NCBI RefSeq assembly: GCF_001677475.2
Contig: NZ_CP015229.1
Reading direction: 5' to 3' (one strand)
DNA length: 64,000 nt
Source: Escherichia coli
GTDB taxonomy: Bacteria; Pseudomonadota; Gammaproteobacteria; Enterobacterales; Enterobacteriaceae
Shown one piece after another: positions 57,001-60,000 of this stretch. Numbering within the stretch: position 1 is the stretch's first letter; each line of letters begins with the position of its first letter. The position numbers were made by a program.

Positions 57001-60000
57001 CAACATATCAAAAAAAAGCTGTTATGAATTACATGGAATACCTGGTAACTTGTCCGTTAGATGAACAACAAATGTCATCGCTGCTTTATGAAAGAGATGA
57101 TTTAAGCGCCATTGATTTTTCATTGCTCATGAAGACGATAAAAGCCTTTTCATTCGGTGGCGATCTCCAAACCCTTGCATCAAAACCGGGTTCCACAATC
57201 TCAAGCATCCCATCAGAAAGACGGATATTGATTAACATCAACCACGATTTCCCTAACAATGGTAATCTTTTCAATGACTTTTTATTTAACCATCAGCAAG
57301 ATGAACAATTAGCAATGGCATATATGGCCGCTCTCCCGTTCAGCAGGCCTTTAGTTTACTGGGATGGTCAGGTATTAAAATCAACGACTGAGATTAAAAA
57401 TGATGATGGGTCCACTCGTGTCGGCGGTGAGGCGTGGCTTAATAAAGGTTGCTCTACCTATCAGCAGCTCTACAATGAATTCCACGCATTATATATAGAT
57501 AAAGAAGGAATATGGAGCGCATTTGAGGGTGTATTTGCAACTAAAAATGTTCTGGCCTTTAGTCGTGGGGATTCTGTGAACATTAATCACTCTCCTCATG
57601 ATGGACTAGTTATAATAAATAAAGGAAACGAAGAAGTTGAAGGTACCTGGCCTAACAAATTGCAACCTGGAATATATAAAAACATGGGGAGTAATAGCGT
57701 TAACATTATTATTAATAATACCCGCAAAAGTATCCCCCCAGGTAAAGCATTTATGCTTAGAGGCGGAACTCTAAATATCAATATTCCTGGGCGTAGCGCT
57801 CTTCTTTTAGGGAAAACTGGAGAACCGCCGAACTATCTCTATTTGTAATTTAATGTTATATCTGCCCCGCTAAAACGGGGCAGATAATATGTTTAGTTTA
57901 CTAACGGTCATTTTGCAGTGAAGCCATTTACCGTTTTTTATCGACCAGATAATCTGTTCTCTGATGGTAATCCACCCCTAACCTGTTGCTTTAGTTATTC
58001 ATTTCCTGTCTCACTTTGCCTTAATACCCTACGTTAAATGTTACCAATTTGTTGCTTTTGATCACAATAAGAAAACTATATGTCGCTTTTGTGCGCATTT
58101 TTCAGAAATGTAGATATTTTTAGATTATGGCTACGAAATGAGCATCGCCATGTCACCCTACATCTCATAGGAGGATCGCTTCTGATGAATGCACTGACCG
58201 CCGTACAAAATAACGCTGTCGATTCAGGCCAGGACTATAGCGGATTCACTCTCATCCCGTCGGCGCAATCCCCGCGTCTGCTGGAACTCACCTTCACCGG
58301 ACAGACGACCAAACAGTTTCTCGAACAGGTTGCCGAATGGCCCGTGCAGGCGCTGGAGTACAAATCTTTTCTGCGTTTTCGGGTAGGCAAAATTCTTGAC
58401 GATCTGTGTGCGAACCAGCTGCAACCATTGCTGTTGAAGACCCTGCTAAACCGTGCTGAAGGTGCGCTGTTGATCAATGCGGTGGGTGTCGATGATGTGA
58501 AGCAAGCGGATGAGATGGTGAAGCTGGCAACGGCGGTAGCGCATCTGATTGGTCGCTCAAATTTCGATGCGATGAGCGGTCAGTATTACGCGCGATTCGT
58601 GGTGAAAAATATCGATAACTCAGACAGCTATCTGCGTCAGCCGCACCGCGTAATGGAGCTGCACAACGACGGCACCTACGTCGAAGAGATCACCGACTAT
58701 GTGCTGATGATGAAAATCGACGAGCAGAACATGCAGGGTGGAAATTCGTTGCTGCTGCATCTCGATGACTGGGAACATCTGGACCACTATTTCCGCCATC
58801 CACTGGCGCGTCGCCCGATGCGCTTTGCCGCGCCTCCGAGCAAAAACGTCAGCAAAGATGTTTTCCATCCAGTGTTCGACGTTGATCAACAGGGTCGCCC
58901 GGTGATGCGTTATATCGACCAGTTCGTCCAGCCAAAAGACTTCGAAGAAGGCGTGTGGCTGAGTGAGCTTTCCGATGCCATTGAAACCAGCAAAGGCATT
59001 CTTTCTGTGCCCGTTCCCGTTGGCAAATTCCTGTTGATTAACAATCTGTTCTGGCTGCACGGTCGCGACCGCTTTACTCCGCACCCGGATCTGCGCCGTG
59101 AACTGATGCGTCAGCGTGGCTATTTCGCTTACGCCACTAACCACTACCAGACGCATCAGTAAGCGCAAAGGAATTGAGCGGATGTATGATTTTGTGATTA
59201 TTGGCGGCGGCATCATCGGCATGTCGACCGCCATGCAACTGATTGATGTTTATCCGGATGCCCGCATTGCGTTGCTGGAAAAAGAGTCCGGCCCGGCCTT
59301 TCATCAGACGGGCCACAACAGCGGCGTGATCCATGCCGGGGTCTATTACACGCCCGGTAGCCTGAAGGCACAGTTTTGCCTGGCGGGAAACCGCGCCACC
59401 AAAGCCTTTTGCGATCAAAACGGCATTCGCTATGACAACTGCGGAAAGATGCTGGTCGCCACCTCTGAACTCGAAATGGAACGGATGCGCGCGTTGTGGG
59501 AACGTACGGCGGCGAATGGTATCGAGCGCGAGTGGCTAAACGCCGACGAACTGCGCGAGCGCGAACCGAATATCACCGGGCTTGGCGGTATTTTTGTGCC
59601 GTCCAGCGGCATCGTCAGCTATCGCGAAGTGACGGCGGCAATGGCAAAAATTTTCCAGGCCAGAGGCGGCGAGATTATTTATAACGCCGAAGTCAGCGCC
59701 CTCAGTGAGCATAAAAACGGCGTGGTGATACGTACCCGTCAGGGCGGTGAATATGAAGCATCGACGCTGATTAGCTGTTCCGGGCTGATGGCTGACCGGC
59801 TGGTGAAAATGCTCGGCCTCGAACCGGGCTTTATTATCTGCCCGTTCCGTGGCGAGTATTTCCGCCTTGCGCCGGAGCATAACCAGATTGTTAACCACCT
59901 GATTTACCCCATTCCCGACCCCGCGATGCCATTTTTGGGCGTGCATCTCACCCGCATGATCGACGGCAGCGTGACCGTTGGGCCAAACGCGGTGCTGGCT

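What the first reader, a model, noticed from the sequence alone, without database searches (positions are those of the whole stretch)
58021..58184. csiD upstream region: no convincing CRP consensus found by eye
csiD is known to be cAMP-CRP and sigma-S dependent. I see only partial matches to TGTGA-N6-TCACA (for example TGTGCGCATTTTTCAG), so I did not annotate a site.
Basis: partly seen in the sequence, partly recalled or inferred. Interest (0 to 1): 0.1.

Follow-up and report, generated by a model that had tools for sequence, protein, structure and literature searches.

The report
Known CRP site upstream of csiD

Summary
The flagged region (58021-58184) is the csiD (glaH) promoter. It differs from E. 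coli K-12 at only three bases there. But a real CRP site lies inside its coordinates, at 58048-58069 (TTTGTTGCTTTTGATCACAATA), with a perfect right half (TCACA, 58062-58066) and a weak left half (GTTGC).

- **Database record:** it is letter-for-letter the RegulonDB csiD site, an activator site centred at -68.5.
- **Matrix scan:** a matrix built from 127 other RegulonDB CRP sites scores it 11.2-11.8 bits. That is the 73rd-77th percentile of known sites and rank 6-8 of 63,979 window positions.
- **Conservation:** GATCACA is kept in 37 of 41 enterobacterial orthologues. It always sits at -68.5 or -69.5 relative to the conserved core block. Distant genera have better left halves in the same register.

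Its example, TGTGCGCATTTTTCAG (58090-58105), has 5 of 10 core mismatches and scores 4-5 bits. It is actually the first primary operator of the repressor CsiR, whose composite motif occurs once in the window (58089-58120). Everything here is already known, so interest is low.

The parts
58048..58069 (+). cAMP-CRP binding site TTTGTTGCTTTTGATCACAATA, centre 58058.5 (= -68.5). The right half TCACA (58062-58066) is perfect. The left half GTTGC (58051-58055) matches 2 of 5.
   Evidence: Identical to the RegulonDB csiD site reproduced in Shimada 2011 Table S4. It is the best matrix hit of the intergenic region. The 22-mer is identical to K-12. GATCACA is invariant in the orthologue alignment.
58070..58080 (+). 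A-rich block AGAAAACTATA (-57 to -47). Proposed to be the distal UP-element half-site named in the title of Germer 2001. This is an inference.
   Evidence: The position follows from TSS 58127. AAACA is conserved in the orthologue alignment. The paper's title is cited. The exact published coordinates could not be read.
58089..58101 (+). CsiR primary operator 1, TTGTGCGCATTTT (TTGT-N5-TTTT).
   Evidence: The motif and 6-nt spacing come from Knorr 2018. The composite pattern occurs once in the window, with 0 expected by chance.
58108..58120 (+). CsiR primary operator 2, ATGTAGATATTTT (ATGT-N5-TTTT). It overlaps the inferred -10 element.
   Evidence: Nearly invariant in 26 aligned orthologues.
58115..58120 (+). 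Inferred -10 hexamer TATTTT (-12 to -7) of the sigma-S-dependent csiD promoter.
   Evidence: Follows from TSS 58127. Nearly invariant in the orthologues (one T-to-C change in two Escherichia species). No sigma-70-type promoter is found on the + strand by the consensus scan. This is an inference and was not read from a primary paper.
58127..58127 (+). Transcription start (+1, an A) implied by the published -68.5 position of the CRP site. The 5' UTR would be 58 nt.
   Evidence: 58058.5 + 68.5 = 58127. No TSS dataset could be consulted.
58126..58139 (+). Very conserved block TATGGCTACGAAAT at about +1 to +13. Function not established.
   Evidence: No RNA-structure signal (z=0.07) and no Rfam match.
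58170..58174 (+). Shine-Dalgarno sequence GGAGG, ending 10 nt before the ATG.
   Evidence: GAGG is conserved in the orthologues.
58185..59162 (+). csiD / glaH coding sequence (glutarate dioxygenase, 325 aa).
   Evidence: Pfam CsiD PF08943 at E=2.8e-151. RefSeq annotation is glaH.

Best explanation
58021-58184 is the characterised csiD (glaH) promoter of E. coli. cAMP-CRP binds an asymmetric site at 58048-58069, which has a perfect promoter-proximal half (TCACA) and a degenerate distal half (GTTGC). The site is centred 68.5 bp upstream of a transcription start at A58127. From this non-standard upstream position CRP activates RNA polymerase carrying sigma-S but not sigma-70. It probably does so through the alpha C-terminal domain docking on the A-rich stretch just downstream of the site. 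The glutarate-responsive repressor CsiR binds two 13-bp operators (58089-58101 and 58108-58120) that cover the -35 and -10 regions.

Shown here: the site's identity with the database entry, its matrix score, and its conservation in sequence and position. Taken from the literature: CRP and sigma-S dependence, the -68.5 position, the CsiR motif, and in vitro CRP binding. Inferred: the exact -10 hexamer, the UP half-site coordinates, and the alpha-CTD mechanism.
For: - **Identity with K-12:** the promoter differs from K-12 MG1655 at 3 bases within 58021-58184, none inside the 22-mer.
[quoted passage not shown] The same core box appears among the genomic SELEX peaks at 2.78688 Mb, and csiD is listed as a known target recovered with purified cAMP-CRP.
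- **Matrix scan:** the matrix from 127 RegulonDB sites, csiD excluded, gives 11.2-11.8 bits. This is the 73rd-77th percentile of training sites, rank 6-8 of 63,979, with local P = 0.03-0.04. An independent matrix of 21 textbook sites gives 10.9 bits, rank 9.
- **Sequence conservation:** GATCACA is retained 121-141 nt upstream of the ATG in 37 of 41 enterobacterial loci. It is the best hit in the upstream 340 nt in 31 of those 37. Left halves are better in the same register in Yokenella (TGTAA, 17 bits), Pluralibacter (TGTTT), Shimwellia (TGTTG) and Hafnia (TGTAT).
- **Position conservation:** the distance from the site to the conserved core block equals -68.5 in 18 loci and -69.5 in 18, of 36 in all.
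Against: - By simple consensus counting the core has 3 of 10 mismatches, which occurs at chance frequency in the window.
- The matrix score alone is only modestly significant (P about 0.03-0.04).
- The primary papers (Marschall 1998, Germer 2001, Metzner 2004) were not available. The TSS, the -10 element and the UP half-site therefore rest on the database value -68.5 plus inference.
- No experimental TSS dataset could be consulted.
- TAGATT (58121-58126) is an alternative -10 hexamer. It would put the start near 58133 and the site at -74.5, contradicting the database.
- No C at -13, the usual sigma-S hallmark, is present under the inferred -10.
Confidence: 0.92

Rival explanations
1. CRP binds in a register shifted 6 bp downstream: TTTGA-TCACAA-TAAGA at 58057-72, centred at 58064.5. 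This would pair with the TAGATT -10 hexamer and a start near 58133.
For: This register also has only 3 core mismatches. In E. whittamii it scores 10.0 bits with the 21-site matrix. Its centre lies 68.5 bp upstream of a start at 58133.
Against: It scores only 1.0-5.5 bits in the window. Its right half (TAAGA) is not conserved in orthologues, where it reads AAAAA, AATTA or ATAAT. Meanwhile TCACA, which would then be spacer, is invariant. RegulonDB prints the 58048-58069 22-mer for -68.5.
Confidence: 0.03
2. The conserved TTGATCACA is recognised by another CRP/FNR-family regulator, for example an FNR-type site TTGAT-N4-ATCAA at 58058-58071, rather than or in addition to CRP.
For: TTGAT-CACA-ATAAG matches the FNR consensus (recalled from my own knowledge) at 8 of 10 positions, read directly from the sequence.
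Against: The would-be right half is not conserved in orthologues, while the would-be spacer CACA is invariant. No FNR control of csiD turned up in the papers read. CRP binding is supported by genomic SELEX and RegulonDB.
Confidence: 0.03
3. There is no functional CRP site in this strain's promoter, and CRP dependence is indirect.
For: No near-consensus palindrome exists, and the site's core mismatch count is at chance level.
Against: The 22-mer is identical to the characterised K-12 site. Matrix rank is 6-9 of about 64,000 positions. Both sequence and position are tightly conserved. Activation from -68.5 is described in the literature.
Confidence: 0.02

Closest known systems
[quoted passage not shown]
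   Same: The 22-bp sequence TTTGTTGCTTTTGATCACAATA is identical. So are the downstream gene and the distance to the ATG.
   Different: Only flanking substitutions: 58045 is C where K-12 has T, and 58077 is T where K-12 has A. A third difference lies next to the Shine-Dalgarno sequence (58170 G against A). Upstream, ygaQ is intact here but a pseudogene in K-12.
Class I CRP-dependent promoters (for example lac, site at -61.5)
   Same: A single CRP dimer bound upstream of RNA polymerase acts as an activator. The lac site, like this one, is asymmetric (TGTGA / TCACT).
   Different: The position is -68.5 or -69.5, not the -61.5, -71.5 or -82.5 series (that series is recalled from established knowledge). 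[quoted passage not shown] The left half-site is much weaker, at 2 of 5.
CsiR (GntR-family) operators of the csiD promoter (Knorr et al. 2018)
   Same: TTGT-N5-TTTT, then 6 nt, then ATGT-N5-TTTT, found exactly once at 58089-58120.
   Different: None detected.

Membership tests
cAMP-CRP binding site | A 22-bp site whose matrix score lies within the range of known CRP sites (core TGTGA-N6-TCACA). | tested here: met
   11.2-11.8 bits, the 73rd-77th percentile of 127 RegulonDB sites. 10.9 bits against a range of 6.9-18.3 for 21 textbook sites. The right half matches 5 of 5 and the left half 2 of 5.
cAMP-CRP binding site | Physical binding by cAMP-CRP. | not testable with these tools
   Literature only. 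csiD was recovered by genomic SELEX with purified cAMP-CRP, and the box GTTGCTTTTGATCACA is listed. The footprinting papers could not be read.
cAMP-CRP binding site | Conservation of the site in orthologous promoters. | tested here: met
   GATCACA is kept in 37 of 41 loci and is the best hit in 31 of 37. Distant genera have better left halves in the same register.
Class I CRP-activated promoter | Site centred near -61.5, -71.5, -82.5 or -92.5, on the same helical face. | tested here: not met
   The centre is -68.5. It is -68.5 or -69.5 in all 36 orthologues measured. The position is described as unusual. It works like a class I activator but is not a canonical member.
Sigma-S-dependent promoter | A -10 element at -12 to -7, typically with C at -13 and a weak -35. 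| tested here: inconclusive
   TATTTT lies at the right distance and is nearly invariant. No sigma-70-type -35/-10 pair is found on the + strand. Position -13 is A, not C. Sigma-S dependence itself is taken from the literature.
   One exact match at 58089-58120, with 0 expected in 100 shuffles.

The most novel reading that the evidence does not exclude
The nearly invariant 14-nt block TATGGCTACGAAAT (58126-58139, about +1 to +13) might be an uncharacterised control element of the csiD operon. It starts exactly 19 nt after CsiR operator 2, which is the same spacing as between operators 1 and 2. Possibilities include a start-site-proximal protein-binding site other than the reported secondary CsiR sites, or a signal in the first bases of the transcript. 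Separately, Escherichia, Salmonella and Citrobacter carry the TGTTG left half one base out of register (7-nt spacing), whereas Shimwellia has it in register. This might be a selected weakening that tunes sigma-S selectivity.
Probability: 0.1. Interest if true: 0.3.

Novelty: already known. Interest (0 to 1): 0.05.

Why it matters
It matters only for annotation quality. The csiD promoter is a textbook model for how an activator's position determines sigma-factor selectivity. Its CRP site shows that consensus matching by eye fails on asymmetric sites with one good half, while a weight matrix combined with orthologue comparison recovers them. The one modest addition here is that the unusual -68.5/-69.5 position is held fixed from Escherichia to Hafnia. 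This agrees with the published view that position, not site strength, is the key feature.

Tried and rejected
- **Consensus search:** TGTGA-N6-TCACA with 2 and 3 mismatches is uninformative, because counts equal chance.
- **Primary papers:** Marschall 1998, Germer 2001 and Metzner 2004 are not held. Neither are Weber 2005 and Lacour 2004, nor Zheng 2004.
- **Full-text searches:** searches for the promoter sequence and for lists of CRP sites returned nothing.
- **Experimental csiD start site:** not found in the supplements of Cho 2014, Kim 2012 or Latif 2018, and Conway 2014 holds no supplement text. Thomason 2015 is not held. No usable csiD detail in Maciag 2011, Peano 2015 or Shimada 2017.
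- **Alternative CRP register at 58064.5:** rejected on matrix score and conservation.
- **RNA element in the conserved 5' block:** fold z-score 0.07, and no Rfam hit below E=0.4.
- **Sigma-70 promoter scan:** nothing on the + strand.

Full report
**What the region is.** The ORF starting at ATG 58185 is CsiD/GlaH (the finding ends at 58184, directly before it). It matches Pfam PF08943 at E=2.8e-151, and RefSeq annotates the homologous gene as glaH, glutarate dioxygenase, in more than 5,300 E. coli genomes. Upstream lies a 750-aa amylase-like ORF (55596-57848). This corresponds to ygaQ, which is a pseudogene in K-12. The 336-nt intergenic region aligns with K-12 MG1655 at 98% identity. Within 58021-58184 there are only three substitutions: 58045, 58077 and 58170. 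Whatever has been established for the K-12 csiD promoter therefore applies here.

**Checking the observation.** It has 5 mismatches in the 10 core positions. No TGTGA-N6-TCACA match with 2 or fewer mismatches lies in the intergenic region. Three-mismatch matches are as frequent in the window as in shuffled sequence, 228 against 240 +/- 14. It did, however, overlook a perfect TCACA at 58062-58066, embedded in GATCACAA.

The best intergenic hit is 58048-58069, TTTGTTGCTTTTGATCACAATA, at 10.9 bits and rank 9 of 63,979 window positions.

I then found a literature source. Table S4 of Shimada et al. 2011 (PMC3105977) reproduces the RegulonDB CRP site list. A matrix from 127 unique sites in parts 1-2 of that table, which do not include csiD, gives the results below.

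| Measure | Sites as annotated | Sites re-centred |
|---|---|---|
| Score of 58048-58069 | 11.2 bits | 11.8 bits |
| Percentile among training sites | 77th | 73rd |
| Rank in window (of 63,979) | 6 | 8 |
| P that a shuffled intergenic region reaches the score | 0.04 | 0.03 |

The next best intergenic hits score 5.5-7.3 bits.

[quoted passage not shown] That is exactly the 22-mer found by the scan. The core box also appears among the genomic SELEX-chip peaks at 2.78688 Mb, and csiD is named among known targets recovered with purified cAMP-CRP. [quoted passage not shown] The centre of the site is 58058.5, so +1 falls at A58127 and the 5' UTR is 58 nt.

**Comparison with other species.** A scan of species-representative genomes with CsiD returned 80 loci.
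- Among 41 enterobacterial loci examined, 37 keep GATCACA 121-141 nt upstream of the ATG. In 31 of these it anchors the best matrix hit in the upstream 340 nt.
- In a 26-species alignment GATCACA is invariant.
- The register is confirmed by genera whose left half is closer to consensus in the same frame: Yokenella TGTAA (17 bits), Pluralibacter TGTTT (14), Shimwellia TGTTG (13.5) and Hafnia TGTAT (about 12).
- Escherichia, Salmonella and Citrobacter carry TGTTG one base out of register, leaving GTTGC in the N6 frame.
- The distance from the site to the conserved ATGTAGATATTTT block is fixed. It corresponds to -68.5 in 18 loci and -69.5 in 18, of 36 in all. The unusual activator position is therefore conserved, not only the sequence.

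Knorr et al. 2018 footprinted the repressor CsiR on this promoter. They reported primary sites TTGT-N5-TTTT and ATGT-N5-TTTT separated by six nucleotides. That composite pattern occurs exactly once in the window, at 58089-58120 (TTGTGCGCATTTT, then TCAGAA, then ATGTAGATATTTT), with none expected by chance. Relative to +1 = 58127, the two operators cover -38 to -26 and -19 to -7, that is the -35 and -10 regions. This is the classic arrangement for repression by occlusion, although that reading is my inference.

**Inferred anatomy.** These items were not read from a primary source.
- **-10 hexamer:** TATTTT at 58115-58120, nearly invariant in the orthologues.
- **Discriminator:** A/T-rich TAGATT.
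- **-35 region:** no sigma-70-type -35/-10 pair is found on the + strand, consistent with a promoter that needs sigma-S and an activator.
- **UP half-site:** an A-rich block at 58070-58080 (-57 to -47, conserved AAACA) is the likely 'distal UP-element half-site' of Germer 2001.
- **Weaknesses:** position -13 is A rather than the sigma-S-typical C. TAGATT (58121-58126) is an alternative -10 hexamer that would contradict the database position.

**Rivals.**
- A CRP register shifted by 6 bp (centre 58064.5) also has three core mismatches. It scores 1-5.5 bits, and its right half is not conserved.
- An FNR-like reading (TTGAT-CACA-ATAAG) fails on the same conservation argument.
- The null hypothesis of no functional site is contradicted by identity with the characterised K-12 site, the matrix rank and the conservation.

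**Verdict.** Interest is low.

**Limits.** The primary csiD promoter papers and every TSS dataset I tried were unavailable. The start site and core elements therefore rest on the RegulonDB value plus inference.

Noticed in passing
window 58126-58139: TATGGCTACGAAAT, at about +1 to +13 of the csiD transcript, is almost invariant from Escherichia to Hafnia. It starts exactly 19 nt after CsiR operator 2, the same period as between operators 1 and 2. If transcription starts at A58127, it begins with ATG GCT ACG AAA TGA (a mini-ORF, MATK), but the stop codon is not conserved in Citrobacter. It may be one of the 'secondary' CsiR sites of Knorr 2018.
   Followed up: partly
window 55596-57848: An intact 750-aa ORF with weak alpha-amylase domains occupies the position of ygaQ, which is annotated as a pseudogene in K-12 MG1655.
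   Followed up: partly
window 57859-57886: A terminator-like hairpin (11-bp stem, TATCTGCCCCG...CGGGGCAGATA) sits right after the ygaQ-like ORF, followed by a T-rich tail. It probably insulates csiD from upstream transcription.
   Followed up: no
window 24034-24055, 23575-23596, 41671-41692: The strongest CRP-like matrix hits of the whole window (14-16 bits, for example TTTTTTGATTATGCTCACATAT) lie in lower-GC DNA. The first two fall in an ORF-poor stretch matching multi-copy prophage-like DNA annotated as a YlcI/YnfO family protein. The DNA around 41671-41692 was not identified. Whether CRP acts at any of them is unknown.
   Followed up: partly
L037 (Leclercia) and L038 (Citrobacter sp. NCU1), about 196-199 nt upstream of csiD: These two loci lack the GATCACA box at the usual place. 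Instead they carry a stronger CRP-like site (TTCCGTGAGCCGCATCACGTCA and TTCCGTGAGAATGATCACGCTA) about 70 nt further upstream, which suggests a rearranged promoter.
   Followed up: no
window 58051-58066 compared with L031 (Shimwellia): Escherichia, Salmonella and Citrobacter carry TGTTG at a 7-nt spacing from TCACA. Shimwellia has the same pentamer at the canonical 6-nt spacing. This looks like a 1-bp spacer insertion that weakened the left half-site.
   Followed up: partly
window 57849-58260; L002: No complete E. coli genome in the collection is more than 99.0% identical to this 412-nt stretch, and most are about 97%. Among species representatives, the CsiD protein is 98% identical to those of Pseudocitrobacter vendiensis and Escherichia sp. 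E1V33. However, the Pseudocitrobacter promoter has a much weaker CRP left half (GCTCA or GCCGC, 1-7 bits).
   Followed up: no
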